A stretch of 64,000 bases of DNA from positions 143,014-207,013 of the forward strand of contig CAYZAV010000001.1 in the NCBI GenBank assembly GCA_964475855.1, in the 5' to 3' direction. The notes beneath the pieces are model-generated. The model was given only the letters and a program-made list of their open reading frames with translations, did not search any database and was not told the DNA's origin. Made by a program: the position numbers and the translations under genes. Origin of the DNA: an uncultured Candidatus Saccharibacteria bacterium (GTDB taxonomy: Bacteria; Patescibacteriota; Minisyncoccia; Minisyncoccales; Staskawiczbacteraceae). Of the stretch, positions 3,659 through 64,000 are shown in pieces (within the stretch, counting starts at the first letter, position 1; every line of letters begins with the position of its first letter).

Positions 3659-3737
3659 GCAATAAATACCTTTAAATTAAATAATTTTACCACGTATATA
3701 AAAACAATACCAAGTACCGTGCCAAACAAACTAACTA

Positions 3738-3766
3738 TTGACAATGCTATATATAAATGATATATA
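3738..3766 (+). promoter_or_regulatory. Sigma70-type promoter, TTGACA-17-TATATA
   Basis: TTGACA at 3738-3743, 17-nt spacer, TATATA at 3761-3766. It lies about 40 nt upstream of the GTG at 3808. Confidence 0.6.
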
Positions 3767-3807
3767 TAAAACATCGCCTCAGCACCTTACTTTTTGGAGG
3801 AATTCCC

Positions 3808-4296
3808 GTGGCCGACGATCAGGTTAAGAAAATTAAAGAGACTGAAGAGTTCAAGATTGGAGGAGCAGTAGACGACGAGCAAAACAAAGACATCAGCAAC
3901 CTCCAATTGCAAATGAAGGAGCAAATGGAAGCTACGCAGGCCTTGGCCAAACAAGTCCAAGATTTGTCTGAAGCCGTCGCCGAGATGGGAAATTTCCGGA
4001 ACGCAATCACCCAGCTCTCAGACCAGCGACAAGCAGACGCTGTCAACATCCAGCGACGCGAAGAGGCCTCACTCAAGGCAGCACATGCGCTTGCAGAACT
4101 GACCAGGGTGATCAAAGAAAGAACTCTGCACTTCAAACAAGTCTTTACCAACGGATTGACTCCTTTGGCGCTGACCAACGAGACCACGGTCAATGGATCT
4201 CAAACGGTACTACCCCCACCAGAATCAATTCTAGTGCTAGAAGACGCCGACGGGGAAGTTCCTGTCACTCAAAGTAACGAAGCAAACAACGCATAG
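3808..4296 (+). CDS. Hypothetical coiled-coil-like protein (162 aa)
   Basis: GTG at 3808 is preceded by GGAGG (3796-3800) with a 7-nt spacing, in frame with track ORF 3757..4296. The upstream ATG at 3757 falls inside the promoter, so it is rejected. Q/E/A-rich; no family recognised. Confidence 0.6.
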   Translation: MADDQVKKIKETEEFKIGGAVDDEQNKDISNLQLQMKEQMEATQALAKQVQDLSEAVAEMGNFRNAITQLSDQRQADAVNIQRREEASLKAAHALAELTRVIKERTLHFKQVFTNGLTPLALTNETTVNGSQTVLPPPESILVLEDADGEVPVTQSNEANNA

Positions 4297-4302
4297 TCCC
4301 AG

Positions 4303-4336
4303 GCCCGAAACCTTTTATGGTTCCGGGCATTTTTTT
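4303..4336 (+). terminator. Rho-independent terminator
   Basis: Stem GCCCGAAACC / GGTTCCGGGC (one mismatch), loop TTTTAT, followed by ATTTTTTT. Confidence 0.7.
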
Positions 4337-4343
4337 ACATCAA

Positions 4344-4368
4344 TTTTGTCCCGCGTAGCGGGACAAAA
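4344..4368. other. Perfect 11-bp stem / 3-nt loop hairpin
   Basis: TTTTGTCCCGC-GTA-GCGGGACAAAA, lying between the terminator and the rpsT promoter. Confidence 0.6.
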
Positions 4369-4381
4369 TAATAGCTAGCTC

Positions 4382-4410
4382 TTGCAGAAAACACATCATT
4401 CTGCTATACT
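4382..4410 (+). promoter_or_regulatory. Promoter TTGCAG-17-TATACT for rpsT
   Basis: TTGCAG at 4382-4387, 17-nt spacer, TATACT at 4405-4410. The ATG is only about 11 nt downstream of the -10, implying a very short leader. Confidence 0.5.
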
Positions 4411-4420
4411 ATTTTTATAT

Positions 4421-4681
4421 ATGGCAATCACCAAATCAGCGAAAAAAGCTATCCGCCAGAACAAGAGGCGCAGGGCCCACAATGTGGTTTATTTGAATGG
4501 AATAAAAAAGCTTCTCAAACAAGCTAAGGATTTTGTGGTGCAAAAGAAAAATAAAGAGGCAAAAGAACTGTTGCCAAAAGTGTACCAGATTTTAGACAAA
4601 GCAGCTAAAGTGGGAATTATCAAAAAAAATACCGCATCACGTAGGAAATCCAGATTAACCAAGTTAATAGAGCGATCCTAA
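4421..4681 (+). CDS. rpsT: 30S ribosomal protein S20
   Basis: MAITKSAKKAIRQNKRRRAHN... is the typical S20 N-terminus. The track start at 4382 (TTG) overlaps the promoter, so the ATG at 4421 is preferred. Confidence 0.9.
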   Translation: MAITKSAKKAIRQNKRRRAHNVVYLNGIKKLLKQAKDFVVQKKNKEAKELLPKVYQILDKAAKVGIIKKNTASRRKSRLTKLIERS

Positions 4682-4710
4682 TCTACGAATTACATCCGAA
4701 TGATCCGAAT

Positions 4711-4736
4711 AAAAAACCGCCTTCTGGCGGTTTTTT
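4711..4736. terminator. Bidirectional rho-independent terminator
   Basis: AAAAAACCGCC-TTCT-GGCGGTTTTTT, lying inside cassette A. Confidence 0.8.
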
Positions 4737-4744
4737 GATTATCC

Positions 4745-5122
4745 TTAATATGACTGCAGGGCGGGATTTAGCACTCTTTTCGGTTTTAAATACGTGCTCC
4801 TAAAATTGACTATTAATCCTAATTCTAAATTACTTCCCGAAAGATACCTTTGCATTTGGAAATAATCTTCTTTAGTAATAAATTTTTTTGCCTTCACATC
4901 AATGATAATCTTGTCATCAATAAGAAAATCAAACCTATTTCCCTTCACTGGTGCATCTGGAATTTCAAACTCTCTTTTATAGGTAATTTGTTTTTCTTTG
5001 AGCACCAATTCCAAAGCATCCGCATATTGCTTTTCACGCAAAAACCGGCCGTGCTTATTTTGGATATCGAAACAAATCCCTGTTAATTCATATGATAATT
5101 GTGCGTGCAATATTCGGGTCAT
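4745..5122 (-). CDS. GxxExxY-family protein (PD-(D/E)XK nuclease fold)
   Basis: 125 aa. GRFLREKQY, DFLIDD...IDVK and LGLIVNF match the family pattern as I recall it (TIGR04256-like). Confidence 0.7.
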   Translation of the reverse strand: MTRILHAQLSYELTGICFDIQNKHGRFLREKQYADALELVLKEKQITYKREFEIPDAPVKGNRFDFLIDDKIIIDVKAKKFITKEDYFQMQRYLSGSNLELGLIVNFRSTYLKPKRVLNPALQSY

Positions 5123-5149
5123 TCGGATGTAATTCGTAAATTAGGATCG

Positions 5150-6085
5150 CTAGATTTGCGACACCAGCAAATCTAAAGCTGTTTCTAATTCTATTTTGCC
5201 GGTTTTAATATCTGAATCAGTTTGGAATATTTTATGATATATTTTTTTTAATTCCTCAAAGCTGAACTGGTGGCACTGCTCATACGTTTTTTTGACCACA
5301 AACGGGTGTAGCCCGCTTTTTTTGACAATAGAGTCATACATCATCCGTTTCTCAGCCAGCTCTTTAACAATTAATAAATTTTTAAACTGGAAGGCAATCA
5401 TACTTAATAGGTACAACACGTTATCACCTTCGTCCAAATGTTTGCGCAGCAGCACCAGCGCCTGCTTTTTATTTTTGTGCGCCAGGGCGTCAATAGTTTT
5501 AAAAATGTCCAGCGCAATACTTGGCCGTACCATTAATTCCACATCTTCTTTTTTAATGGTTACGCCCTTTTTATAATCCGCCAGTTTTTTGATTTCCTGG
5601 TGCAAGCGCCAGCAATCTGGGCCAGTATAGGCCGTCAGCAAATCCAGTGCATCCAAGTTTATTTTTGCGTTCAAAACCTGCAATTCGCTCTGCGCCCAAA
5701 GTTTCAAGTTTTTAGGATCCAGAGACTTGAATTCCTGGCATTTGGCCATTTTAACAAGCTGTTTGAAAATTTTTAACCGCTGGTCAGGTTCTTCATCTTC
5801 ATAGACAACAGTAATATCTTGTAACTCCTGCAGTGTTTTCACCTCTTCTAAAAAATCTTCCTGGAACTGTTTATTGGCAAATAAATTTTTCAGCACCACC
5901 AGCTTTTTTTCAGCAAACATGCCCACCGCCCGGAAGTGTCCGAAAAACTCCGCAAAGTCCGCCTCAATCGCATCCACCCGCATCAAATTCAGCCCGCTTT
6001 TACGAACATTTTTATACTGCCCCACAATCTCATCCAGTTTTTGCTTCGATCTATAACTATCTTGTCCGAATAAAAAAATTATCAT
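5150..6085 (-). CDS. holA: DNA polymerase III delta subunit
   Basis: 311 aa. The MIIFLFGQDSYRSKQKLDEI... N-terminus and overall length are typical of HolA. Confidence 0.8.
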   Translation of the reverse strand: MIIFLFGQDSYRSKQKLDEIVGQYKNVRKSGLNLMRVDAIEADFAEFFGHFRAVGMFAEKKLVVLKNLFANKQFQEDFLEEVKTLQELQDITVVYEDEEPDQRLKIFKQLVKMAKCQEFKSLDPKNLKLWAQSELQVLNAKINLDALDLLTAYTGPDCWRLHQEIKKLADYKKGVTIKKEDVELMVRPSIALDIFKTIDALAHKNKKQALVLLRKHLDEGDNVLYLLSMIAFQFKNLLIVKELAEKRMMYDSIVKKSGLHPFVVKKTYEQCHQFSFEELKKIYHKIFQTDSDIKTGKIELETALDLLVSQI

Positions 6086-6093
6086 GGGTCGCA

Positions 6094-6530
6094 GTTATAA
6101 AGTTTGTAAAGTTATAAAGTTCATAAAGTCCTGTGCCATAATCTTATAAAGTTTTTATTAAGCCTGAAATCATCCGAGATATTTCCTTAGACAAAGAATT
6201 TATTTTTTCAAATTCTTCTCTTGAAACATAATTTAAGTCTACTGCAGTATATGACATTGATCTTACCTCTGAACAAGAACCTTTGGCAATATACAAAAAT
6301 CTAATAAACTCTTTATTTCCCATTCTTTCGAATCCTTCTGCGATATTATTACCAACACTAACTGTTGCCCTTTTGATTTGGTCACAAAAACTAAAATCTC
6401 TGTTATTTTTAAATAACGCATATATTAGTACTGCCAATTGCCTGCTTTTTTGCCAAGCAACAATATCTTCAAATTTTTCGAATTTCATTTTAGAACTTTA
6501 TAACTTTACAAACTTTATGAACTTTATAAC
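6094..6530. mobile_element. IR-bounded cassette B carrying a four-helix-bundle gene
   Basis: Flanks 6094-6130 and 6493-6530 are built from the same 8-11-nt units (GTTATAAAGTT, TGTAAAGTT, ATAAAGTT, CATAAAGT) in inverted orientation with permuted order. The cassette occupies the whole mutM-holA spacer. Confidence 0.6.
6144..6488 (-). CDS. Four-helix-bundle protein (23S rRNA intervening-sequence protein family)
   Basis: FEDIVAWQKS...NNIAEGFER...KGSCSEV matches the family pattern. Confidence 0.85.
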   Translation of the reverse strand: MKFEKFEDIVAWQKSRQLAVLIYALFKNNRDFSFCDQIKRATVSVGNNIAEGFERMGNKEFIRFLYIAKGSCSEVRSMSYTAVDLNYVSREEFEKINSLSKEISRMISGLIKTL

Positions 6531-7405
6531 TATAGCACCTGACATTTCGGGCAATAGAATGCGCTTCGGGCGGCGATTACTTTGCGCACAATAATCGCTT
6601 TACACCGGGAACAATTCTTGCCTTCCATTTGATATGCTTTTTTATGACCTTCGAAATTGCCCTTATTACCATCAACATCACGGTAATCAGAAAAGCTGTC
6701 TCCACCAAAATCTATGCCAGCGTTGAGTACTTTTTTAATATATTTATAGAGCAACTGTAATTCTTGCCTACTTAAATTTTCTGCCCGCTTTTCAGGGTGG
6801 AGACGCGCCCACCATAGCGCCTCGCTGGCATAAATATTACCAATGCCGGCAATCACAAATGGATCCATTATGACTTGCTTTATCTTTCCGCGTTTTTTGG
6901 AAACAATAGCCGCAAACTTTTCAAACGTGAAATTATTTTCCAGCGGTTCAGGCCCTATTTTCTTAAATTCCGGCGACACCAACAGTTCGTCCGTTTTCCA
7001 TAATTCAACCTTGGCAAATTTGCGCATATCAGAAAGCGCAATCATGTCGCCATTATCCAAAAAGAATATTATGTGCAAAAATCCATTTATCCGTTCGCGC
7101 AACGGGCCTTCGTCAGCCGACACCCATGTTCCATGCTTCATGTTCCATGTTCCATGAAGAAAGTGTCCCGTCATTTTCATATGCACTAACAAAGAATATC
7201 CGTCTGACAATTCAAATATGACATTTTTCGCCCGACGCCAAACGCGGATAATTTTCTTGCCCTTCAATTCTTTTTTAAACTGCGTAAACGGCCGCGGCCG
7301 TTTCACCATCTTTTCCCAATCGCACCACACATCAACAAAGGCCCGGTTAAGGACCTTTGCTTGTAACCCATTGACGGTGGTTTGTACTTCAGGTAGTTCC
7401 GGCAT
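6530..7405 (-). CDS. mutM: Formamidopyrimidine-DNA glycosylase
   Basis: MPELPEV N-terminus (catalytic Pro2) and a C-terminal zinc finger CSRC...CPKC. The track start at 7513 adds 36 spurious residues. Confidence 0.9.
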   Translation of the reverse strand: MPELPEVQTTVNGLQAKVLNRAFVDVWCDWEKMVKRPRPFTQFKKELKGKKIIRVWRRAKNVIFELSDGYSLLVHMKMTGHFLHGTWNMKHGTWVSADEGPLRERINGFLHIIFFLDNGDMIALSDMRKFAKVELWKTDELLVSPEFKKIGPEPLENNFTFEKFAAIVSKKRGKIKQVIMDPFVIAGIGNIYASEALWWARLHPEKRAENLSRQELQLLYKYIKKVLNAGIDFGGDSFSDYRDVDGNKGNFEGHKKAYQMEGKNCSRCKAIIVRKVIAARSAFYCPKCQVL

Positions 7406-26561: not shown

Positions 26562-26705
26562 TCAAGGAAGTATTCGCAATACATAATCCTCCGTTAACTC
26601 CCCTGGGAGGATTATGTATTGCGAATACTTCCGACCTATCTTATGCCGTTCTTGCCAAACATGAAGATCAGTAAATTTTGTAATTTTTCCAGTTGCAATA
26701 TTCAT
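26562..26705 (-). pseudogene. Four-helix-bundle protein remnant (47 codons)
   Basis: MNIATGKITKFTDLHVWQERHK... matches the family N-terminus (compare FEDIVAWQKS at 6144..6488), then loses similarity and stops. Confidence 0.5.
26566..26632. repeat. Perfect 27-bp inverted repeat with a 13-nt loop
   Basis: GGAAGTATTCGCAATACATAATCCTCC at 26566-26592 is the reverse complement of 26606-26632. Confidence 0.85.
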
Positions 26706-29231: not shown

Positions 29232-29236
29232 ATGTT

Positions 29237-29714
29237 AATTTGAAATTTACAATTTGAAATTTGAATTCAATTTGAAATGGTTAAATATTAAATTTAAAAA
29301 TTAGTTTTTTGTTGAGTAAGCAATTTTACCGAATATTAGTATGAATTCTTTTGACTCTTGCCAGAGATTTCTGCAGTCTTCCTTTATTTTACCATTATCT
29401 ATAGATTCTCCTAGTAACTCCAACCAATACAGAGTTTCCTTGGATTCTTTCTTGCAGATAAATATTTTATTCTGAAAGTCTTTTCTGCTTGATGCGCCAT
29501 TTGCTTCCCGGTAATTCGCCCCGATACTGGTGCCTGAACGTATTAACTGATTGATTAAAGGTATGGTAGTGATGCTTTTTGGACATAGGTTGCAAAAAGT
29601 AATTAACTTGCGGGAAAAATCCAAGGTTCTTTTTTCTAAGTCGTAAGCTTTTTCAAATTCAGCCATTTGCTTTTTTCAAATTGAATTCAAATTTCAAATT
29701 GTAAATTTCAAATT
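29237..29714. mobile_element. IR-bounded cassette C: perfect 41-bp arms around a four-helix-bundle gene
   Basis: 29237-29277 is the exact reverse complement of 29674-29714. It sits between the start of 28560..29231 and the stop of 29714..30121. Confidence 0.85.
29301..29666 (-). CDS. Four-helix-bundle protein (23S rRNA intervening-sequence protein family)
   Basis: LIRSGTSIGANYREA...KESKETLYWLELL. Confidence 0.8.
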   Translation of the reverse strand: MAEFEKAYDLEKRTLDFSRKLITFCNLCPKSITTIPLINQLIRSGTSIGANYREANGASSRKDFQNKIFICKKESKETLYWLELLGESIDNGKIKEDCRNLWQESKEFILIFGKIAYSTKN

Positions 29715-30121
29715 TACTTGCGTGTCTCTACCTTAGTTTTAACATCTTTTAGCGCACTGTGCTGCATTTTCATGGACGTTTTGGCTGTTTCTAGTACGGC
29801 AATCGGTTCGGGTTTTTTATGGACTTTAAACGGATAGGGCACTTCTTTCTTTTTCCAGGTATAGGTTTTTGACTTGGTGGCAAACCCGATAAAATTCATC
29901 AAGACGGTAGTAACCGACATGTTGTTGAGTTTTATAAACGCCACTACAAACGTTATTAGCGCGGTAAACCCGGCAAGGACAATGGCAAACAGCAGGCGCA
30001 GGAGCAGGAAATATCCAAGGCACAAAAATCCGCCAATAACCACCATCCAAAATTGCTTGAATGTCAAAAAAGCAATAATTTTCCCCTCTTCTTCTATAAA
30101 TTGTGGTGTTGGATACTGCAT
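29714..30121 (-). CDS. PrgI-family (VirB3-like) membrane protein
   Basis: MQYPTPQFIEEEGKIIAFLTFKQF followed by two TM helices, the typical PrgI layout. Confidence 0.6.
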   Translation of the reverse strand: MQYPTPQFIEEEGKIIAFLTFKQFWMVVIGGFLCLGYFLLLRLLFAIVLAGFTALITFVVAFIKLNNMSVTTVLMNFIGFATKSKTYTWKKKEVPYPFKVHKKPEPIAVLETAKTSMKMQHSALKDVKTKVETRK

Positions 30122-30142: not shown

Positions 30143-30224
30143 CGCGGAATAATGCGGAATTTTACGCGGAACTAAGCGGAATTTTTCGTTTTATTCCGTG
30201 TGAATTTCCGTGTCATTCTGCGCG
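30143..30224. repeat. Cargo-less oligo-repeat hairpin (GCGGAAT units)
   Basis: Four direct GCGGAA(T/C) units followed by the inverted units ATTCCGTG, TTTCCGTG and ATTCTGCGCG. Confidence 0.55.
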
Positions 30225-33542: not shown

Positions 33543-34378
33543 AGATTTACTATAATCTCGCCGTAACTGCTTGTCAAATTTTTCCAATCCTGCAGGCTAA
33601 GCGTTTCTGCACGGCGTTTGGCATCAATATTATTTTTCAAAAGCCAAGCACTAATAGCTTCTTTATCTTTTTTAAGGGCTTTAGAGAGGTTTCCTGCTAA
33701 TTGCTTGCGCGGTGCTGAAAAACCGGCTTTAACTAGAGTGAAGAATATTTCAGGGTCAATTGTCGATTTTTCCTTGTGCGGGGTGATGGAAATAATAGCC
33801 GAGTCCACGTTGGGTGCCGGCCAGAAGCAATTTTTGGAAACGTAGGAAATAACTTTGGGAGTGGCGTAAAACTGTACCGAAAGGGCCAGAATACTCATGT
33901 CTGGCGGCTTGGCGCAAATACGCTTTGCCACTTCTTTTTGAACCATCAACACCATAATAGTTGGTTGGTGTTTTTCCTCCAGAAATTTTCTGATGATGGG
34001 CGAGGTGATATAGTACGGGATGTTGGCGACTAACTTATAATTTGAAATTTGAAATTTGAAATTTGAAATTTCGAGCGCGTTGCCCTGGACGACTTCTACA
34101 TTGTTAAAGCCTGCTAGTGTTTCTTGTAAAATTTCTACCATGGCGCGGTCTTTTTCTATGGCAATGACATTGCCCGCCTTTTCTGCCAATGCCCTGGTAA
34201 GAGTGCCAATGCCCGGACCAATTTCTAAAACTGTATCCTGGCTGGAAAGCTCTGCCGCCGCAATAATTTTTTCTAAAATCCGTCCGTCAATCAAAAAATT
34301 CTGGCCAAGCCGTTTGGATGGCGCGGCAGCATGTTTTGCTAATAATTCCTTGATTACCGAGGGGGAGATAATGTCCAT
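33539..34378 (-). CDS. rsmA: 16S rRNA (adenine1518/1519-N6)-dimethyltransferase
   Basis: LGQNFLID, EIGPGIGTLT, ANIPYYITSPI. Confidence 0.9.
   Translation of the reverse strand: MDIISPSVIKELLAKHAAAPSKRLGQNFLIDGRILEKIIAAAELSSQDTVLEIGPGIGTLTRALAEKAGNVIAIEKDRAMVEILQETLAGFNNVEVVQGNALEISNFKFQISNYKLVANIPYYITSPIIRKFLEEKHQPTIMVLMVQKEVAKRICAKPPDMSILALSVQFYATPKVISYVSKNCFWPAPNVDSAIISITPHKEKSTIDPEIFFTLVKAGFSAPRKQLAGNLSKALKKDKEAISAWLLKNNIDAKRRAETLSLQDWKNLTSSYGEIIVNL
34039..34074. repeat. Tandem AATTTGAA octamers (4.5 units) inside the rsmA coding sequence
   Basis: Encodes the in-frame NFKFQISN of ...EISNFKFQISNYKLVANIPY. It uses the same 12-mer AATTTGAAATTT that occurs twice in the cassette C arm. Confidence 0.8.
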
Positions 34379-38526: not shown

Positions 38527-38595
38527 TAGTAATCAGTAACAGGTAATCAGTAATTAGTAAATTCTTTTTACCAGTTACTCGCTACCAGTTACTTT
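38527..38595. repeat. Oligo-repeat hairpin (CAGTAAC / GGTAA units) filling the pnp to downstream-gene spacer
   Basis: AGTAACAGGTAATCAGTAA pairs imperfectly with TTACCAGTTACTCGCTACCAGTTACT. Confidence 0.4.
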
Positions 38596-40712
38596 TTTGT
38601 TTTTGGCGTAAATCCCGCGTCTTTGGCAGATAAATTAATCCTACCTAAGTCATCAATACCCATAACGATAACCGGGATGGTTTCACCTTCCTTGACCACT
38701 TCCTGCACATTTTTTATTTGGTACGATACAAATTTGGAGATGTGCACCAATCCTGATTGCCCGGGCAAAATATCCACAAATGCCCCAAAGTCCATGATTT
38801 TGCGTACCACGCCTTCAAATTTTTCCCCTACAGCCACCTCGCGCACCATACTGCTGATTCTGGCTGCGCAGGCATCCACACCCGCCTGGCTTTGGCCGGT
38901 AATAAATACGAGGCCCGAATCCTCGATGGAAATGCTTACGTCAAATTCGTCAATCATCTTATTGATGACGCTGCCCTTTGGCCCAACCACCTCTCCGATC
39001 CTGGCCGGGTTGATCATCATAGAATGTATCTTTGGCGCATACGGCGAAAGCTGTTTGCGCGGCTCAGCAATTCCCTCCTTTATTATATCAAGAATTTTCA
39101 ATCTTGCATCTTTTGCGCGGCGCAAAGCTTCCTGCATGATTTCGGCGCTAATGCCATCAATTTTAATGTCCATCTGGATGGCAGTAATGCCATTTTTGGT
39201 ACCGGCCACTTTAAAGTCCATGTCACCAAAATGGTCTTCTGGACCCTGAATATCGGTCAAAACCACATGCTTTCCTGAAACCTCGTCTTTGGCGAGACCA
39301 ATGGAAATTCCAGCCACGGGTTCTAAAATAGGCACGCCGGCGTCCATTAAGGCAATGGTTGCCGCGCATACCGAAGCCATGGAAGTGGATCCATTACTAC
39401 TTAAAGCTTCAGACACAATTCTGATAGTATATGGGAAAACGGCCGGATCAGGAATAACTGGTAGTAATGCCTTTTCAGCCAAATGTCCGTGCCCGATTTC
39501 ACGCCGTTTTGGTCCGCGCATTGGTGCAGTTTCCCCGGTGGAATATGGCGGAAAATTATAGTGGTGCATAAAGCGTTTTTTGCCAACCACTTCCATGCCT
39601 TCCAAAATTTGCTGGTCATCCGGGCCGCCGAGGGTCAGGATAGACAAAATTTTGGTCATGCCTCGGTGGAAAACACCAGATCCATGCGTGCGTGGCAACA
39701 CGGCCACTTCAGCCCACAATGCCCTGATTTCATGGTCTTTTCTGCCATCGGGCCGTTGGTTTTTTTCAATGATGTTATGGATGATAATCCGTTCCATTTC
39801 TTTTTCAAAAAATGGCAGTACCTGCTTTTCCTTGCCGGTATCGGGATATTTTTCTTTGATATAGGTAGTTAATTCGGTGCGCAATTCTTCGGCCGGGCCT
39901 AAGTTCTTTTCCCCTGGCGCAGCGTTGGTGATGGCTTTTTCCAACCGGTCACCCAAAAACGCCTTGATGTCAGTTTCAATATCAGAATGCACTGCTGGTT
40001 GAAATGTTTCTTTTTCGCGGCCCACCTTGGCAATGATGTTTTTCTGGAAATCAATGATTTGTTGCAATGTTTCCTGTGCAAATTCCACCGCAGCCATGAC
40101 ATCGTCTTCGGCTACCTGCTTGGCTCCCATTTCAATCATGTTGATCAATACTTTGCTGTCTTTCAAAATGGCGGTAAACGTCAAATCCATGTCGCCTTCA
40201 GCACGTTCTTTGTATGTTGGATTGATAATAAAATTTCCGCCCACGCGCCCGATGCGTACCGCCCCCAATGGCCCATTCCAGGGGATTTGCGACATTCCGA
40301 GGGCTATGGAAGCGCCAACCATGGCGGCAATGTCTGGGTCGTTTTCCTGGTCCCAAGTCAAACAGGTAATAATCACCTGCACTTCTTTTTTGAAATCTTT
40401 TGGGAATAATGGCCGTACTGCCCGGTCAATCATTCGGCTGGTTAAAACCGCCTCGTCCGTTGGCCGGCTTTCGCGCTTTAAAAAGCGACTGCCATAAATT
40501 TTCCCGGCAGCATAAAACTTTTCCTCGTACTCCACCATTAGCGGGAAAAAATCTTTCCCCTCAACACTATTTTGCGAAAGTGTGGCGTTGGCGATAACCT
40601 CGGTTTCGCCATACTGCACTACGCATGATCCACTTGCCTGTACCGCCCATTCGGGAAACTTCACCTTCAGTTTTTTCCCGCCCACCATAAGCTCAAATGC
40701 TTCTTTTTTCAT
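38589..40712 (-). CDS. pnp: Polyribonucleotide nucleotidyltransferase
   Basis: 707 aa: two RNase PH domains, KH and S1 (GVVRKIMDFGAFVDI). Confidence 0.95.
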   Translation of the reverse strand: MKKEAFELMVGGKKLKVKFPEWAVQASGSCVVQYGETEVIANATLSQNSVEGKDFFPLMVEYEEKFYAAGKIYGSRFLKRESRPTDEAVLTSRMIDRAVRPLFPKDFKKEVQVIITCLTWDQENDPDIAAMVGASIALGMSQIPWNGPLGAVRIGRVGGNFIINPTYKERAEGDMDLTFTAILKDSKVLINMIEMGAKQVAEDDVMAAVEFAQETLQQIIDFQKNIIAKVGREKETFQPAVHSDIETDIKAFLGDRLEKAITNAAPGEKNLGPAEELRTELTTYIKEKYPDTGKEKQVLPFFEKEMERIIIHNIIEKNQRPDGRKDHEIRALWAEVAVLPRTHGSGVFHRGMTKILSILTLGGPDDQQILEGMEVVGKKRFMHHYNFPPYSTGETAPMRGPKRREIGHGHLAEKALLPVIPDPAVFPYTIRIVSEALSSNGSTSMASVCAATIALMDAGVPILEPVAGISIGLAKDEVSGKHVVLTDIQGPEDHFGDMDFKVAGTKNGITAIQMDIKIDGISAEIMQEALRRAKDARLKILDIIKEGIAEPRKQLSPYAPKIHSMMINPARIGEVVGPKGSVINKMIDEFDVSISIEDSGLVFITGQSQAGVDACAARISSMVREVAVGEKFEGVVRKIMDFGAFVDILPGQSGLVHISKFVSYQIKNVQEVVKEGETIPVIVMGIDDLGRINLSAKDAGFTPKTKK

Positions 40713-40722
40713 TATTTTTTGC

Positions 40723-40822
40723 AGCGATCCGAATAACCCGAATCTTCATCCGAATAACCCGAATAATCCTGCCGCCCAGCGGATTCGGAACATTCGGATG
40801 CTATCCGTAAATTAGGATCGCT
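40723..40822. repeat. Cargo-less hairpin with the same termini as cassette A
   Basis: Starts AGCGATCC and ends GGATCGCT. The reverse complement of the right arm is AGCGATCCTAATTTACGgatagCATCCGAATG, against cassette A AGCGATCCTAATTTACGaattaCATCCGAATG. Confidence 0.7.
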
Positions 40823-40827
40823 ATTAA

Positions 40828-41328
40828 TTATTTTTTTAACAAAAACTTTTCATTCCCGTCCAGATCAATAAACTCGTCTGCCACTTCAATTAATTTTCCT
40901 GAAGTGGTTTTGCCAAACGCCAATATTTCCACGCGCTTGCCCTGGTTTTTTAAGTATTCTACTAGTGGAATAAAGTCGCCATCGCCAGAACAAAGTACAA
41001 TAACATCTAAACCGGGCGATGTACGGATAGCATCAATAACAATACCCACGTCCCAATCAGCTTTTTTGGCGCCGCCATAAAATTCCTGCAAATCGCGTAC
41101 CCGGGTTTCAATGCCTAGCTTGCTTAATGCATCAAAAAACGGCTTTTCTTCGCCGGTTTTTGTGCGCACCACGTATCCAAACGCCCGGATGAATTTACGT
41201 CCCGCCACCGCGGCCTTGAGTACTTCAGCAAAATTAACCTTTGACTGGTACAAATTCCGCGCCGAATAATACAAATTCTGCACATCAATCAGGACTTCGA
41301 CCCTTTGTTCTTTTGATTTAGTTAGCAT
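40828..41328 (-). CDS. NYN-domain (LabA-like) protein
   Basis: LIDVQNLYYSARN...VLCSGDGDFIPLVEYLKNQGKRVEILAF. Confidence 0.7.
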   Translation of the reverse strand: MLTKSKEQRVEVLIDVQNLYYSARNLYQSKVNFAEVLKAAVAGRKFIRAFGYVVRTKTGEEKPFFDALSKLGIETRVRDLQEFYGGAKKADWDVGIVIDAIRTSPGLDVIVLCSGDGDFIPLVEYLKNQGKRVEILAFGKTTSGKLIEVADEFIDLDGNEKFLLKK

Positions 41329-41331
41329 ACA

Positions 41332-41429
41332 ATAGTTTTTAGTTGATAGTTATTAGTTTTGGTTTTGCAGTTTCTAGTTTTAACTGTTAACAAAGTAACT
41401 AAAACTAATTACCAATAACTATTAACTAT
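41332..41429. repeat. Oligo-repeat hairpin, TAGTT family
   Basis: The left half TAGTTTTTAGTTGATAGTTATTAGTTTTGGTTTTG is inverted in the right half. The same sequence family occurs at 53139-53240. Confidence 0.55.
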
Positions 41430-41692
41430 TTTTTCAGGCCGATCTTTTTAATGACATCCTTGTAGCGTGCTTCGTCTTCCTTCATTAAATAGGCCAATAA
41501 TTTCTTCCTTTTTACTACCATGCGCAATAGTCCGCGCTTAGAGTGCAAATCTTTTGGGTGGTCTTTTAAATGCAAAATCAGGGCATCCATTTCTTCTGAA
41601 AGCAGCCCAATTTGCACATCGGCAGAACCGGTGTCTTTTTCGTTAATGGCGTGCGCTTTGACAATCTTTACCTTCTTCTCTTTTTTTAACAT
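41426..41692 (-). CDS. rpsO: 30S ribosomal protein S15
   Basis: TGSADVQIGLLSEEMDALILHLKDHPKDLHSKRGLL. Confidence 0.9.
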   Translation of the reverse strand: MLKKEKKVKIVKAHAINEKDTGSADVQIGLLSEEMDALILHLKDHPKDLHSKRGLLRMVVKRKKLLAYLMKEDEARYKDVIKKIGLKK

Positions 41693-42604: not shown

Positions 42605-44059
42605 ATGGTCATTCCCAAAGAAGTTAAAATTATACTGGAAAAACTGAAAAGCGCAGGCTTTGAGGCCTACATCGTCGGCGGATGCGTGCGCGATTTTTTA
42701 TTGGGGCACGAACCAAAAGACTGGGATGTGACCACTAATGCCAAGCCTGAAGAAATTCAAAAGGTGTTTCCCGACAGTTTTTACGAGAATACGTTTTTAA
42801 CGGTGACGGTCAAGATGCCTGGAATGGAGGTAGAAGTAACTACTTATCGATCTGAAGCCAAATATTCTGACAAGCGCCATCCGGATGCGGTGGAATACGC
42901 GAAGACGTTGGAGGAGGATTTAAGCCGGCGGGATTTTACCGTCAATGCAATGGCGATAGATCATGAAGCATGGAACATGAAACATGGAACAGGGGTGATC
43001 GACCCGTTTGGTGGCCAAGAGGATTTAAAGAAAAAAATTATCAGGACGGTGGGAAATGCCAATGATCGTTTTGGGGAAGATGCGTTGCGTATGTTGCGGG
43101 CGGTGCGGTTTGCGGCAGTGCTTGATTTTACGATAGAAGAAAAAACGGCTGAAGCGATAAAAAAGAACAGCCTGTGGATTGATGCCGTTTCAAAGGAGCG
43201 CATCAGGGATGAGTTTGTGAAAATGGTTATGTCGCTCAGGGCAGCTGACGGTGTTGAGTTGCTGCGGGAATTTGGTTTGCTGAAAATTATTATCCCGGAA
43301 TTACAAGAAAATGTAGGGGTAGGACAAAATAAGCATCATATTTATGATTGCTATGAGCATGCCTTAAAGGCGCTGGAGTATACGGCTAAGAAAAAATTTA
43401 GCTTGCACGTGCGTCTGGCCGCCTTGTTACACGACGTTGGAAAGCCGCGGGTGAAAATGGGAGAAGGCAAAGAATCAACGTTTTATAACCACGAAATGAT
43501 TGGGGCTCGCCTGGCCTTCCAAATTTTGCAGCGCCTGAAATTTTCCAATAATGATGTTAATGCGGTGGTCAATTTGGTGCGCCACCATATGTTTTACTAT
43601 AATGTGGATGAAGTGACGGAATCTTCCGTGCGCCGGCTGGTTAAAAAAGTGGGCCCTGAAAATATGGAGGCGCTTTTACAGGTGCGTGAAGCGGATCGGA
43701 TTGGCAGTGGTGTGCCAAAGGCAGAGCCCTATAAGCTGCGCCACTTAAAATATATCATTGAAAAAGTTTCCAAGGACCCGATTTCGGTCAAAATGTTAGC
43801 GATAGATGGCAAAGACGTGATGGATGTGCTGGGTATTGCGCCAGGGCCAAAGATAGGACAAATTTTGGACGCGCTATTAGGACATGTGCTTGATGATCCA
43901 TCTAAAAACACCGCCGAATTTTTGAAGAGTGAAATTAAGGTTCTGGGCGCGCTTAGTGAAAAAGAATTACAAAGCCTGGCCGAAAAAAGCAAGGAAGATA
44001 CATTTGGCGCACAGTCAGTTGAAGACGAAAAAGTGAAAAGCAAGTATTGGGTGAAGTAA
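42605..44059 (+). CDS. cca: CCA-adding enzyme (tRNA nucleotidyltransferase with HD domain)
   Basis: VGGCVRDFLLG...DWDVTT, RRDFTVNA, and an HD region LLHDVGKP. Confidence 0.85.
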   Translation: MVIPKEVKIILEKLKSAGFEAYIVGGCVRDFLLGHEPKDWDVTTNAKPEEIQKVFPDSFYENTFLTVTVKMPGMEVEVTTYRSEAKYSDKRHPDAVEYAKTLEEDLSRRDFTVNAMAIDHEAWNMKHGTGVIDPFGGQEDLKKKIIRTVGNANDRFGEDALRMLRAVRFAAVLDFTIEEKTAEAIKKNSLWIDAVSKERIRDEFVKMVMSLRAADGVELLREFGLLKIIIPELQENVGVGQNKHHIYDCYEHALKALEYTAKKKFSLHVRLAALLHDVGKPRVKMGEGKESTFYNHEMIGARLAFQILQRLKFSNNDVNAVVNLVRHHMFYYNVDEVTESSVRRLVKKVGPENMEALLQVREADRIGSGVPKAEPYKLRHLKYIIEKVSKDPISVKMLAIDGKDVMDVLGIAPGPKIGQILDALLGHVLDDPSKNTAEFLKSEIKVLGALSEKELQSLAEKSKEDTFGAQSVEDEKVKSKYWVK

Positions 44060-45654: not shown

Positions 45655-46038
45655 ATGGACACCAGGCAACTAGGCGAATTAGGTGAAAAAATAGCCTGTG
45701 GATATCTTGTTGAAAAGGGGTTTACTATCCTGGGGAAAAACTATAGGATAACGTTCGGAGAAATAGACATTATTGCGCGTCATAAAGATATTATTCATTT
45801 TGTGGAAGTAAAAGCCCTTCGACAGGCTCAGGGCGAGCCATTAATCGAGGGCTTTTTTCCTGAAGAGCATGTCAATTACAAAAAGCAGCGAAAATTGCTG
45901 CAGATGGCCCAGATCTGGCTTGAGCAAAACCGTTATCCACAAGATTTCCCCTATCAAATAGATATCGTGGGTATTTTGGTAAATGAAACCGTCCGCAGCG
46001 CCAAACTCCATTATTTTCCTAATGCCGTCGGGGGATAG
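45655..46038 (+). CDS. yraN: YraN-family endonuclease (UPF0102)
   Basis: GELGEKIACGYLVEKGFTILGKNYR...GEIDIIA...FVEVK. Confidence 0.8.
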   Translation: MDTRQLGELGEKIACGYLVEKGFTILGKNYRITFGEIDIIARHKDIIHFVEVKALRQAQGEPLIEGFFPEEHVNYKKQRKLLQMAQIWLEQNRYPQDFPYQIDIVGILVNETVRSAKLHYFPNAVGG

Positions 46039-50068: not shown

Positions 50069-50157
50069 AAACTAAGCCTTTTTGGGGGGGGGCGAGCTGA
50101 CAGCGCGGTTTATTTTAAAGGCGCTATCGGTGATTGCCGTTTCCTTCCCCATTAGCC

Positions 50158-50382
50158 GGTGAATATCTTGTTGAAAAAGGGTTTACCATCCTGGGTAAAA
50201 ACCATAGGGTAAAGTTTGGAGAAATAGATATTATCGCGCGGCATAAAGATAGTATTCATTTCGTGGAAGAAAACCGTTATCTACAGGATTTTTCCTATCA
50301 AATAGATATTATTGGTATTTTGGTTGACGAAGTCGTTCGCCGCGCCAAGTTGCATTATTTTCCGAATGCGGTTAGTGGGTAA
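50158..50382 (+). pseudogene. Decayed second copy of yraN
   Basis: 60 of 73 alignable residues are identical to 45655..46038 (counted from the track translations). It lacks the N-terminus and the internal 39 aa that include the EVK catalytic motif. Confidence 0.7.
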
Positions 50383-53126: not shown

Positions 53127-53138
53127 ATAAATTTAAAA

Positions 53139-53240
53139 ATAGTTTATAGTTATTAGTTCATAGTTTTAGTTAACTAGTTACTAGTTAGCAAAACTAATGA
53201 CTAAAAAACCAAAACTAATAACTAAAAACTAAAGACTAAT
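53139..53240. repeat. Oligo-repeat hairpin, TAGTT family, abutting the nusA ATG
   Basis: The reverse complement of the right half contains TAGTTTTTAGTTATTAGTTTTGGTTTT, near-identical to 41335-41367. Confidence 0.55.
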
Positions 53241-63844: not shown

Positions 63845-63850
63845 ATAAAA

Positions 63851-63943
63851 TTAAGCCGTAAAATGGTAAATATTATTACAGGTGTCATGTAGAGGACTTC
63901 TATCATATAACATTGTAATATCCTATGACTATTTACGGCTTAA
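63851..63943. promoter_or_regulatory. Inverted repeat ATTAAGCCGTAAA / TTTACGGCTTAAT in a divergent promoter region
   Basis: The core 63851-63862 is the reverse complement of 63932-63943. Confidence 0.4.
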
Positions 63944-63947
63944 TATT

Positions 63948-64000
63948 ATGACGAGTCTAAAACGCCTGGAAAAGCTTCAGGCGCTATTGACCGGTGCACA
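63948..64000 (+). CDS. Start of an ORF running off the right edge
   Basis: ATG at 63948, MTSLKRLEKLQALLTGA...; only 17 codons are visible. Confidence 0.3.
   Translation, partial: MTSLKRLEKLQALLTGA

What the first reader, a model, noticed from the sequence alone, without database searches (positions are those of the whole stretch)
40723..40822. Cargo-less 100-bp hairpin sharing its terminal sequence with cassette A, between pnp and the NYN-domain gene
- The element begins AGCGATCC and ends GGATCGCT.
- Over the first 32 nt, the reverse complement of its right arm is identical to the arms of cassette A except for a 5-nt block (GATAG versus AATTA).
- Its left arm is a CCGAATAACCCGAAT-unit variant.
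- It starts 11 nt from the pnp start codon and ends 6 nt from the stop of 40828..41328.
- This is the best evidence in the window that the cassette arms form a repeated, dispersed family that exists with and without cargo.
Basis: seen in the sequence. Interest (0 to 1): 0.55.

Follow-up and report, generated by a model that had tools for sequence, protein, structure and literature searches.

The report
Dispersed hairpin repeat upstream of pnp
The 100-base hairpin in front of the pnp gene is one copy of an apparently undescribed family of palindromic repeats found across the tiny-celled Patescibacteria. The family's longer form carries a small nuclease gene of unknown function, so the hairpin gives a concrete lead to what that gene family does.

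Summary
Window 40723-40822 is an imperfect 100-nt hairpin (-47 kcal/mol, z -5.4). One arm is 88% identical over 40 nt to both arms of the cassette at 4671-5151, whose cargo is a GxxExxY PD-(D/E)XK nuclease.

A 19-base arm pattern found 54 loci in one-genome-per-species bacteria. 52 of them carry the extended consensus, and almost all are Patescibacteria of many classes, with up to about 11 copies per genome. Most copies are cargo-less hairpins of 75-154 nt with one conserved asymmetric architecture. They fill the spacer between two co-directional housekeeping genes, in either orientation, without target-site duplications.

Conversely, the closest GxxExxY genes in metagenomes are flanked by inverted repeats of the same unit type.

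At this locus the hairpin is an old resident. The order rpsO-NYN-hairpin-pnp recurs in Staskawiczbacteria and Portnoybacteria, and 13 of 31 base pairs show compensatory changes.

Best reading: a REPIN/MITE-like repeat, the cargo-less form of the GxxExxY cassette. It is retained here as a structured pnp leader, probably a double-strand RNase processing site as in E. coli rpsO-pnp. That function is inferred, not shown. No Rfam family and no paper found describes it.

The parts
40723..40822 (-). Complete cargo-less hairpin element. Its canonical orientation is that of the NYN and pnp transcripts.
   Evidence: Covariance model R1 scores 93 bits (E 9e-22) on the minus strand against 55.5 bits on the plus strand. 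Fold -47.2 kcal/mol, z -5.4.
40783..40822 (-). 5' arm: AGCGATCCTAATTTACGGATAGCATCCGAATGTTCCGAAT, the family's most conserved part
   Evidence: 88% identical to the arms of cassette A (I5, D15). Matches the cross-genome consensus AGCGATCCTAATCTACGAAT..CATCCGAATGATCCGAAT.
40765..40782 (-). Variable apex with a small G+C-rich stem-loop (CCGCTGGGCGGCAGGATT)
   Evidence: The apex is the only non-conserved part in the alignment of 28 elements. Structure.
40723..40764 (-). 3' arm: four tandem ATTCGG-type units ending in ATTCGGATCGCT
   Evidence: Alignment A1 consensus ATTCGG..CATTCGGATG.TAATTCGGATCATTCGGATCGCT
38589..40712 (-). pnp (polynucleotide phosphorylase). Its ATG lies 10 nt after the hairpin, with no Shine-Dalgarno sequence.
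   Evidence: Pfam RNase_PH, RNase_PH_C, KH_1, S1. Upstream sequence.
40828..41328 (-). NYN-domain gene, a resident member of the rpsO-NYN-pnp operon. Its stop lies 5 nt before the hairpin.
   Evidence: Pfam NYN, E 8e-34. Same gene order in L003-L008 and L040.
41426..41692 (-). rpsO (ribosomal protein S15), first gene of the operon
   Evidence: Pfam Ribosomal_S15
4671..5151 (-). Cassette A, the cargo-carrying relative of the hairpin, in the order: 5' arm 5112-5151, GxxExxY ORF, internal terminator-like hairpin, 3' arm 4671-4710
   Evidence: Arms of 46 nt are 91% complementary (I3). The same arm family appears. The cassette is syntenic, directly after holA, in L062, L078, L083, L085, L104 and L115.
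4745..5122 (-). Cargo: GxxExxY protein (PD-(D/E)XK nuclease fold, 125 aa). Its ATG lies inside the CATCCGAATG stem of the 5' arm.
   Evidence: PF13366, E 2e-20. TIGR04256, E 6e-20. AlphaFold pLDDT 88. Weak fold matches to Cas4, lambda exonuclease and MGME1.
4712..4738 (.). Bidirectional terminator-like hairpin AAAAAACCGCCTTCTGGCGGTTTTTT, inside cassette A between the ORF and the 3' arm
   Evidence: Sequence. Relatives without the cassette keep only such a terminator at the holA/rpsT junction.

Best explanation
The element is one copy of a Patescibacteria-wide family of about 75-150-nt palindromic intergenic repeats.

Architecture:
- Each arm is made of about four tandem 8-11-nt units (CCGAAT on one arm, ATTCGG on the other).
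- An 8-bp clamp AGCGAUCC/GGAUCGCU closes the stem.
- The mismatches and internal loops are conserved and asymmetric.
- The apex is variable.

It is the cargo-less form of a cassette whose apex holds a GxxExxY PD-(D/E)XK nuclease gene. That makes it a REPIN/MITE-like partner of a low-copy gene.

At this locus it is not a recent insertion. It has sat between the NYN gene and pnp since before Staskawiczbacteria and Portnoybacteria diverged, and it is kept as a hairpin by compensatory changes.

Inferred mechanism: the rpsO-NYN-pnp transcript folds here into a duplex of about 35 bp, 10 nt before the pnp start. A double-strand-specific RNase (RNase III type) cuts it. This uncouples pnp mRNA from the upstream genes and sets its 5' end and stability, as the long leader stem-loop does in E. 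coli rpsO-pnp.

Shown: family membership, architecture, distribution, the cargo link, orthology and structural conservation.

Inferred: transcription through the element, RNase cleavage, and any role of the GxxExxY nuclease in spreading or maintaining the repeats.
For: Family:
- The pattern AGCGATCCTAATNTACGRAT gives 54 loci in genome contigs. My own arithmetic, assuming uniform base composition, gives about 9 chance hits.
- 52 of the 54 loci share about 20 further conserved bases beyond the pattern.
- 35 complete hairpins show one architecture.
- Model R1 finds about 62 elements, including ones that do not match the pattern. The canonical strand beats the reverse strand by about 25-35 bits.
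- 3' arms are 82% identical within a genome and 72% between genomes (p 4e-19).

Position:
- 40 of 45 classifiable elements lie between co-directional genes.
- They start 0-5 nt after the upstream stop codon and end 1-11 nt before the downstream ATG.

Cargo link:
- All but two of the 78 GxxExxY loci with enough flank yielded a flanking inverted match of 10 nt or more, almost all built of the same xCGAAT/xCTAAT units; the search was not compared with a control.
- The stricter arm profiles detect arms in only 33 of 80 loci upstream and 28 of 80 downstream (22 with both), counted per locus.
- As profile hits, that is 36 to the 5'-arm profile upstream and 25 to the 3'-arm profile downstream, against 11 elsewhere in 217 kb.
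- L032 (a Saccharibacteria genome) has the same arms around a GxxExxY pseudogene.

This locus:
- The order NYN-hairpin-pnp is present in L003-L007, L040, L044 and L008. In L008 the PNPase is only 42% identical.
- Over 7 orthologous hairpins, 86% of cells are paired against 75% in shuffles and 28-48% when the partners are slid. 13 of 31 pairs changed on both sides, matched by 0 of 500 shuffles.
- The sense strand folds better than the antisense strand in 6 of 8 orthologues.

Precedent: the E. coli pnp leader stem-loop is cut by RNase III (PMC5029454).
Against: - There are no transcript, cleavage or protein data.
- No RNase III motif was found in the window, and the rest of the genome was not examined.
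- Family-wide, fold stability does not track the transcribed strand (mean difference -0.3 kcal/mol, p 0.74, n 40).
- Orientation relative to the flanking genes is 25 sense to 15 antisense. A generic RNA role is therefore not required, and a DNA-level constraint fits the family as well.
- The sequence of the 5' arm is conserved far beyond what a stem needs. This points to sequence-specific recognition by something unknown.
- There is no target-site duplication and no recognised transposase, so mobility is inferred only from dispersal, genome-specific variants, tandem or nested copies (L056, L046) and presence/absence at junctions.
- Only one canonical hairpin and one cassette lie in this 64-kb window. 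The source genome was not in the scanned genome collection.
- The seed loci were found with a 5'-arm pattern, so conservation of the first 20 nt is partly due to how they were found.
Confidence: 0.6

Rival explanations
1. Selfish or neutral palindromic repeat. The hairpin is a non-autonomous MITE/REPIN-like element that persists in spacers because it does no harm. It has no role in pnp expression.
For: - The family sits next to many unrelated housekeeping genes: dnaK, mreB, rpsS, secF, secY, topA, tuf.
- It occurs in both orientations, 25 to 15.
- There is no family-wide preference for the transcribed strand.
- Junctions gain and lose such elements. The rpsO-NYN spacer is 0 nt in L003, L005 and L006 but holds hairpins in the window, L040 and L007.
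Against: - At the NYN-pnp junction a hairpin is present in every relative examined, down to 42% PNPase identity.
- It is kept by compensatory changes.
- It favours the sense strand in 6 of 8 orthologues.
- In genomes this compact, a useless 100-nt tract would be expected to be lost, as at the other junctions.
Confidence: 0.22
2. DNA-level site. The palindrome works as a cruciform or as folded single-stranded DNA, recognised through its conserved bulges and terminal sequence by the GxxExxY nuclease or another enzyme. This would resemble REP sequences with RAYT, or attC sites with integrase. Its location in the pnp leader would then be incidental.
For: - The asymmetry is intrinsic to the element and independent of transcription direction.
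- Sequence is conserved beyond what pairing needs.
- The two arms co-evolve; L085 has a 42-nt perfect inverted repeat that has diverged from the window's.
- Variants are genome-specific.
- The cargo has an intact PD-(D/E)XK active site: invariant E30, D65, K77 and K79.
Against: - No activity is known for any GxxExxY protein. Pfam lists PDDEXK_3 as of unknown function (PMC3424549).
- Fold matches are weak, with best E 2e-3.
- There is no tyrosine recombinase or HUH transposase at the loci examined.
- G-U pairs specific to the sense strand at the pnp site argue for an RNA constraint there.
Confidence: 0.15
3. Intrinsic terminator or attenuator that ends the rpsO-NYN transcript before pnp.
For: A very stable hairpin lies directly after the NYN stop codon. 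Cassettes of the family contain genuine terminator-like hairpins.
Against: On the transcribed strand the hairpin is followed by GCAAAAAATAATG, with no run of U. The same holds for the orthologues: ACAAAAAAATG, AAAATAAACAATG. A stem of about 35 bp with internal loops is not the short G+C-rich stem of intrinsic terminators.
Confidence: 0.03
4. Chance palindrome of low-complexity sequence with a coincidental resemblance to cassette A.
For: The arms are built of short tandem units, which produce inverted matches more easily than random sequence does.
Against: - 0 of 200 shuffles fold as well.
- 0 of 100 shuffles give three arm matches.
- 52 loci in other genomes share the non-repetitive terminal sequence and the whole architecture.
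Confidence: 0.01

Closest known systems
REPINs and their RAYT transposases (REP sequences of Proteobacteria; PMC3116915, PMC3337134)
   Same: - About 100-nt hairpins in extragenic space, many copies per genome.
- Genome-specific sequence populations.
- Long vertical persistence.
- A low-copy gene flanked by the same repeat in inverted orientation.
- No target-site duplication.
   Different: - The flanked gene is a 125-aa PD-(D/E)XK GxxExxY protein, not an HUH/Y1 transposase.
- The arms are arrays of four 8-11-nt units rather than two REP palindromes carrying GTAG.
- Near-identical arm sequence is shared across whole classes of Patescibacteria, whereas REP sequences are lineage-specific.
- Mobilisation has not been shown.
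Correia repeat enclosed elements of Neisseria (PMC2649163) and other bacterial MITEs (PMC10969869, PMC2229807)
   Same: A short palindromic element close to genes that is co-transcribed with them. For Correia elements, the duplex binds RNase III and is either cleaved or protected by it, which alters expression of the neighbouring gene. This is the mode of action proposed here.
   Different: - Correia elements have a TA target duplication, 26-bp terminal repeats around a distinct core, and outward promoters.
- Here there is no duplication, the whole element is one stem, and a cargo-carrying relative exists.
RNase III stem-loop of the E. coli pnp leader in the rpsO-pnp operon (PMC5029454)
   Same: A long imperfect stem-loop between the upstream gene and the pnp start, in an operon that begins with rpsO. 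It is conserved at this position among relatives and maintained through compensatory changes.
   Different: - There is no sequence relation.
- Here the hairpin belongs to a repeat family found in front of many other genes.
- It ends only 10 nt before an ATG that lacks a Shine-Dalgarno sequence.
- A NYN gene lies between rpsO and pnp.
- Cleavage and autoregulation are untested.
Intervening sequences of 23S rRNA that carry small ORFs (own knowledge: Leptospira, Coxiella and others; excised by RNase III). The Pfam family name '23S rRNA-intervening sequence protein' (PF05635) reflects this.
   Same: A small gene enclosed by long inverted repeats that pair in the transcript. The same window holds two PF05635/TIGR02436 genes enclosed in this way. 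Cargo-less hairpin versions exist.
   Different: The elements here lie between protein-coding genes, not in rRNA. No rRNA was found in any fetched locus. The cargo of this arm family is GxxExxY, not the four-helix-bundle protein.
Integron attC sites
   Same: Imperfect palindromes of 60-140 nt with conserved unpaired bases, a variable apex and strand asymmetry, adjacent to small promoterless genes.
   Different: - The R''/R' core sequence (GTTRRRY) is absent.
- There is no integrase and no tandem cassette array.
- The neighbours are core housekeeping operons.

Membership tests
The hairpin family defined here (model R1) | Full-length match to the covariance model of sequence plus structure, on one preferred strand | tested here: met
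   93 bits, E 9e-22, model positions 1-98 of 98 on the minus strand; 55.5 bits on the plus strand. Caveat: the window's own sequence was one of the 28 used to build the model.
The hairpin family defined here (model R1) | Members exist in other genomes and at other loci | tested here: met
   54 pattern loci. About 62 model hits in 384 kb, including loci that do not match the pattern, such as L004, L005, L023:1563 and L033:834.
MITE | Short, non-coding, with terminal inverted repeats | tested here: met
   100 nt, no ORF, and the arms pair over the whole length
MITE | Target-site duplication flanking the element | tested here: not met
   The longest flanking direct repeats of 35 elements have the same distribution as with shuffled partners
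MITE | A parent element with the same termini that encodes a transposase | tested here: inconclusive
   A relative with the same termini exists (cassette A, L032, L062-L141), but its gene is a GxxExxY nuclease with no known transposase activity
REPIN-RAYT system | Many extragenic hairpin copies per genome that form genome-specific sequence clusters | tested here: met
   11 elements on 10 contigs of the JACQLU01 genome and 7 in MHOT01. Identity 82% within genomes against 72% between. Not shown for the source genome itself.
REPIN-RAYT system | Associated gene is a RAYT (IS200/IS605-type HUH tyrosine transposase) flanked by the repeats | tested here: not met
   The flanked gene is PF13366/TIGR04256
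RNase III-processed pnp leader (E. coli type) | Long stem-loop in the pnp 5' leader, conserved in relatives | tested here: met
   Hairpins of -31 to -58 kcal/mol that end 8-12 nt before the pnp ATG in 8 relatives. Compensatory changes.
RNase III-processed pnp leader (E. coli type) | Cleavage by RNase III and PNPase-dependent autoregulation | not testable with these tools
   No transcript or enzyme data. No rnc motif in the window.
Intrinsic (Rho-independent) terminator | Short G+C-rich stem followed by a run of U on the transcribed strand | tested here: not met
   The stem is followed by GCAAAAAAUAAUG
Any Rfam family | Match at or near the gathering score | tested here: not met
   Only two tRNAs reach the gathering score in the window. 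Nothing above 19 bits in 40600-41500 with E up to 10.
Integron attC | R''/R' core sites, and an adjacent integrase or cassette array | tested here: not met
   The ends are AGCGATCC/GGATCGCT. The neighbours are core genes.

The most novel reading that the evidence does not exclude
GxxExxY proteins, a very large family of small PD-(D/E)XK nucleases with no known function, are the enzyme partners of a vertically persisting population of hairpin repeats. This would be a REPIN-RAYT-like replicator built on a different enzyme. The nuclease would recognise the conserved asymmetric hairpin or cruciform and copy or maintain it. Patescibacteria would then have co-opted the hairpins as intercistronic processing signals in core operons such as rpsO-NYN-pnp, rplB-rpsS and secD-secF. 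The four-helix-bundle ('23S rRNA intervening sequence') cassettes in the same genome, each with its own unit-repeat arms, would be parallel systems of the same kind.
Probability: 0.3. Interest if true: 0.8.

Novelty: new variant of a known kind. Interest (0 to 1): 0.62.

Why it matters
- Interspersed palindromic repeats are known in Proteobacteria, Neisseria and pneumococci. I found no description for Patescibacteria, a group with genomes of about 1 Mb in which 100-nt non-coding tracts are costly.
- Here a 40-nt non-coding arm is shared almost unchanged between classes whose flanking proteins are only 42-62% identical. This implies recognition by a conserved factor.
- The link to GxxExxY genes gives the first concrete, testable context for that protein family, and by analogy for the four-helix-bundle '23S rRNA intervening sequence' proteins.
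- If the hairpins are processing sites, they would also explain how long Shine-Dalgarno-less operons of these organisms are cut into separately regulated messages.

Tried and rejected
1. NYN gene as cargo flanked by two hairpins: rejected. rpsO-NYN-pnp is conserved, with a 0-nt rpsO-NYN spacer in L003, L005 and L006.
2. The hairpin as a pnp-specific leader unrelated to cassette A: rejected once the genome scan showed the family in front of many genes.
3. The hairpin end as a Shine-Dalgarno donor: not supported. The organism hardly uses Shine-Dalgarno sequences (7 of 64 genes). Only the antisense orientation offers AGGA.
4. Outward -10/-35 promoters in the arms: only weak hexamer resemblance when read by eye. 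Not pursued.
5. Family-wide RNA-strand asymmetry: tested and absent.
6. Target-site duplication: absent.
7. Viral origin: 0 hits to the pattern in viral contigs.
8. Link to rRNA intervening sequences through the fetched loci: they contain no rRNA motifs.
9. Rfam: no family.
10. Literature: searches for GxxExxY, PDDEXK_3, intervening sequence protein plus inverted repeat, Patescibacteria plus MITE, and CPR plus hairpin plus RNase III found nothing that describes the family.
12. L002 seemed to have a longer spacer. This was only a different start-codon call on identical DNA.

Full report
**1. The observation**

Positions 40723-40822 begin AGCGATCC and end GGATCGCT. They lie between the stop of a NYN-domain gene (40828..41328, minus strand) and the ATG of pnp (38589..40712, minus strand). 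Gene identities come from Pfam.

As RNA of the transcribed (minus) strand, the spacer folds into one long imperfect hairpin of -47.2 kcal/mol. Shuffles average -29.0 (z -5.4, 0 of 200 as good).

The arm next to the NYN gene is 88% identical over 40-41 nt to both arms of the inverted-repeat cassette at 4671-5151 (I3, I5, D15). Three matches to the 18-mer with up to 3 mismatches occur against 0.07 expected. Every detail in the finding is correct.

**2. The surroundings**

The source is a Candidatus Staskawiczbacteria genome, judged from names on close PNPase homologues.

The gene order is rpsO - NYN - pnp, all on the minus strand. The same order occurs in relatives with 74-81% identical PNPase (L003-L007, L040, L044). 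It also occurs in a Portnoybacteria genome with only 42% identical PNPase (L008). The NYN gene is therefore a resident of the operon, not cargo.

The organism almost lacks Shine-Dalgarno sequences (7 of 64 genes). A hairpin that ends 10 nt before an ATG therefore does not displace a ribosome-binding site.

The cargo of cassette A is a 125-aa GxxExxY protein (PF13366, TIGR04256).

**3. A dispersed family**

- **Genome scan.** The pattern AGCGATCCTAATNTACGRAT gave 54 loci in one genome per species. My own arithmetic for uniform base composition gives about 9 chance hits.
- **Extended consensus.** All but two loci (Loosdrechtia and Saprospiraceae) continue with the consensus ..CATCCGAATGATCCGAATA.
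- **Taxonomy.** Nearly all come from Patescibacteria of many classes: Saccharibacteria, Parcubacteria, and Staskawicz-, Doudna-, Woese-, Roizman- and Portnoybacteria. One genome carries copies on up to 10 contigs.
- **Architecture.** 35 hits are complete hairpins of 73-154 nt with one architecture:
  - an 8-bp clamp AGCGAUCC/GGAUCG(C/G)N;
  - a U-C mismatch;
  - AAU/AUU;
  - an internal loop;
  - CGAAU/AUUCG;
  - a second loop;
  - CAUCCGAAUG/CAUUCGGAUG;
  - a further short stem;
  - a variable apex that is often G+C-rich.
- **Asymmetry.** The 3' arm is four tandem ATTCGGAT-type units. The 5' arm deviates from their complement in a conserved way (TAAT, CTACGAAT), so the element is asymmetric.
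- **Covariance model.** Model R1 (98 positions, 33 pairs) scores the window's element at 93 bits on the minus strand and 55.5 on the plus strand. It finds about 62 elements in 384 kb of loci. These include copies that lack the search pattern and the pnp-leader hairpins of L004 (56 bits) and L005/L006 (48 bits).
- **No known family.** No Rfam family matches. The pattern is absent from viral contigs.

**4. Where the copies sit**

- Of 45 classifiable elements, 40 lie between two co-directional genes. 25 are in the sense orientation and 15 in the antisense orientation.
- They start 0-5 nt after the upstream stop codon, often overlapping it, and end 1-11 nt before the next ATG.
- The neighbours are ordinary core genes: pnp x3, dnaK x3, mreB, rpsS x2 (after rplB), secF (after secD), secY, topA and tuf.
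- There is no target-site duplication.
- 3' arms are more alike within a genome (82%) than between genomes (72%; p 4e-19).
- Tandem or nested copies occur in L056 and L046.
- Family-wide, the fold is no more stable on the transcribed strand than on the other strand (mean difference -0.3 kcal/mol, p 0.74, n 40).

**5. The cargo link**

The window's GxxExxY protein was used to fetch 80 metagenome loci with 44-72% identity.

- **Same unit type.** All but two of the 78 loci with enough flank yielded a flanking inverted match of 10 nt or more, almost all built of the same unit type (ATCCGAAT, ATGCGAAT, CTACTAAT and similar). They often start (A/G)GCGA(T/C)(C/A)C(T/C)AAT.
- **Strict profiles.** Arm profiles built from the hairpins give 36 hits to the 5'-arm profile directly upstream, in 33 of the 80 loci, and 25 hits to the 3'-arm profile directly downstream. 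Only 11 hits fall anywhere else in 217 kb. The opposite arrangement is essentially absent.
- **Gene orientation.** The gene therefore runs from the AGCGATCCTAAT end to the ATTCGGATCGCT end.
  - Its ATG lies inside the CATCCGAATG stem.
  - Many homologues end in HSDxHSD tails, which are the translated 3' arm.
  - A terminator-like hairpin lies between the ORF and the 3' arm.
- **Distant example.** A Saccharibacteria locus (L032) has the same arms around a frameshifted GxxExxY gene.
- **Copy ratio.** In about 423 kb of fetched loci (hairpin loci, pnp relatives and holA relatives) there is one GxxExxY gene to about 60 hairpins.
- **The protein.** It has invariant E30, D65, K77 and K79 and a confident PD-(D/E)XK model (pLDDT 88).
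  - Fold matches are weak: Cas4, lambda exonuclease, MGME1 and tRNA-splicing endonucleases, best E 2e-3.
  - There is no PDB sequence match.
  - Pfam's survey lists the family as of unknown function (PMC3424549).

**6. History of the two loci**

*The cassette after holA.* It is syntenic in L062, L078, L083, L085, L104 and L115, where the upstream ORF ends ...ALDLLVSQI*.

- Its arms have diverged between genomes but stay complementary within each genome. L085 has a 42-nt perfect repeat.
- Other relatives have only a bidirectional terminator at that junction (L144, L146).
- L145 has a terminator plus a 16-nt remnant, AGCGACACTAATTTAG, directly after the holA stop.

*The NYN-pnp junction.* It holds a hairpin in every relative examined.

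- Over seven orthologues, 86% of pair cells are standard pairs. The figure is 75% in column shuffles and 28-48% when the partners are slid.
- 13 of 31 pairs changed on both sides, matched by 0 of 500 shuffles.
- The sense strand folds better in 6 of 8 orthologues, by up to 17 kcal/mol in the most diverged copies.
- By contrast, the rpsO-NYN spacer varies:
  - 0 nt in L003, L005 and L006;
  - a family member in L040 and L007;
  - an unrelated ORF in L004;
  - in the window, a hairpin of a different unit type.

**7. Interpretation**

*Shown:*
- The element is a member of a widespread repeat family, undescribed as far as Rfam and the searched literature go.
- That family is the cargo-less counterpart of the GxxExxY cassette.
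- This copy is an old resident of the pnp leader, maintained as a hairpin.

*Inferred:* the operon transcript folds here into a duplex of about 35 bp that a double-strand-specific RNase cuts. Two precedents support this. RNase III cleaves the long stem-loop of the E. coli pnp leader and so starts PNPase autoregulation (PMC5029454). It also binds, and cleaves or protects, Correia elements of Neisseria (PMC2649163).

*Alternatives that remain open:*
- The family-wide lack of strand preference and the strong sequence conservation fit a DNA-level constraint as well, such as recognition of the folded palindrome by the nuclease, as REP sequences are recognised by RAYTs (PMC3116915, PMC3337134).
- A harmless selfish repeat also remains possible. 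It fits this particular copy less well.

*Ruled out:* an intrinsic terminator, because no run of U follows the stem, and a chance palindrome.

**8. Limits**

- The seed loci were chosen by a 5'-arm pattern, which inflates the apparent conservation of the first 20 nt.
- The model was built from these seeds and includes the window's own copy.
- Gene calls in the loci are simple longest-ORF calls.
- The source genome outside the window was not scanned.
- Mobility, transcription, cleavage and nuclease activity are all untested.

**9. Verdict**

The kind of element, an interspersed palindromic repeat with a gene-carrying relative, is known. Its architecture, its partner gene and its breadth across Patescibacteria are new as far as I could find.

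Noticed in passing
window 41333-41433 and 53135-53238: A second hairpin family, built of TAGTTAT-type units. One copy fills the rpsO-NYN spacer (97 nt, -19 kcal/mol, z -3.1). An inverted copy (81-84% complementary) lies just upstream of the ORF at 53241, which reads like NusA (-30.5 kcal/mol, z -5.8). Relatives L003, L005 and L006 have a 0-nt rpsO-NYN spacer.
   Followed up: partly
window 6093-6531: A cassette between fpg and holA. A four-helix-bundle protein (PF05635/TIGR02436, ORF 6144-6488, minus strand) is enclosed by 40-nt inverted repeats of ATAAAGTT units. At the same junction, relatives have no spacer at all (L143) or unrelated small ORFs, some PaaX_M-like (L142, L144-L146). The junction is a hot spot.
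   Followed up: partly
window 29234-29717 and 34032-34071: A third cassette. Another four-helix-bundle gene (29301-29666, minus strand) is enclosed by 44-nt arms that are 98% complementary and made of AAATTTGA units. A solo tract of the same units lies at 34032-34071 and does not fold on its own.
   Followed up: partly
window 30143-30224: A hairpin built of four GCGGAAT-type units per arm, between two minus-strand genes. The 110-nt window around it folds much better as plus-strand RNA (-54 kcal/mol) than as minus-strand RNA (-35.5 kcal/mol). Weak structural match to model R1 (17.5 bits).
   Followed up: partly
window 26566-26632 and 63845-63949: Two further strong intergenic hairpins. One is a perfect 27-bp stem with a 13-nt loop (-45.7 kcal/mol, z -9.4). 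The other is about 100 nt (-27.3 kcal/mol, z -5.2; R1 18 bits).
   Followed up: no
window 4665-4681 and 5150-5152: Host genes borrow the arms of cassette A. The last four codons and the stop of rpsT (..IERS*) lie inside the left arm. The holA stop codon TAG overlaps the first bases of the other arm.
   Followed up: no
whole window (64 predicted genes): Only 7 of 64 genes have even a weak Shine-Dalgarno-like motif. Several have TATAAT-like boxes 8-25 nt before the ATG, which suggests short or absent leaders.
   Followed up: partly
window 40828-41692; L003-L008, L040, L044: A NYN-domain gene (a putative ribonuclease) is conserved between rpsO and pnp in Staskawiczbacteria and Portnoybacteria. 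The NYN protein is 85-93% identical among the Staskawiczbacteria relatives and 62% identical in the Portnoybacteria locus L008, while PNPase is 42-81% identical. In L007 an MNT/HEPN-like pair lies between NYN and the hairpin, and in L044 another ORF does.
   Followed up: partly
window 45692-46037 versus 50153-50381: Two direct repeats of 121 and 112 nt (88% and 79% identity), 4.4 kb apart. They overlap ORFs 45655-46038 and 50134-50382 and look like a partial gene duplication.
   Followed up: no
window 7121-7157 and 42961-42997; L059 about 4080-4110: A CATGTTCCATG-unit tract occurs twice in the window as an inverted pair (89% complementary), both copies apparently inside ORFs. It occurs again in an intergenic region of another Staskawiczbacteria genome (L059). 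It may be yet another unit-repeat family.
   Followed up: no
proteins P0121-P0240: Many GxxExxY homologues sit on very short contigs (0.5-5 kb). This is expected if the cassettes or their arms are repeats that break metagenome assemblies.
   Followed up: no
L042 (MHOT01 Staskawiczbacteria) 3437-5859: Three four-helix-bundle genes lie within 2.5 kb of one another in a locus that also carries a hairpin of the family studied here.
   Followed up: no
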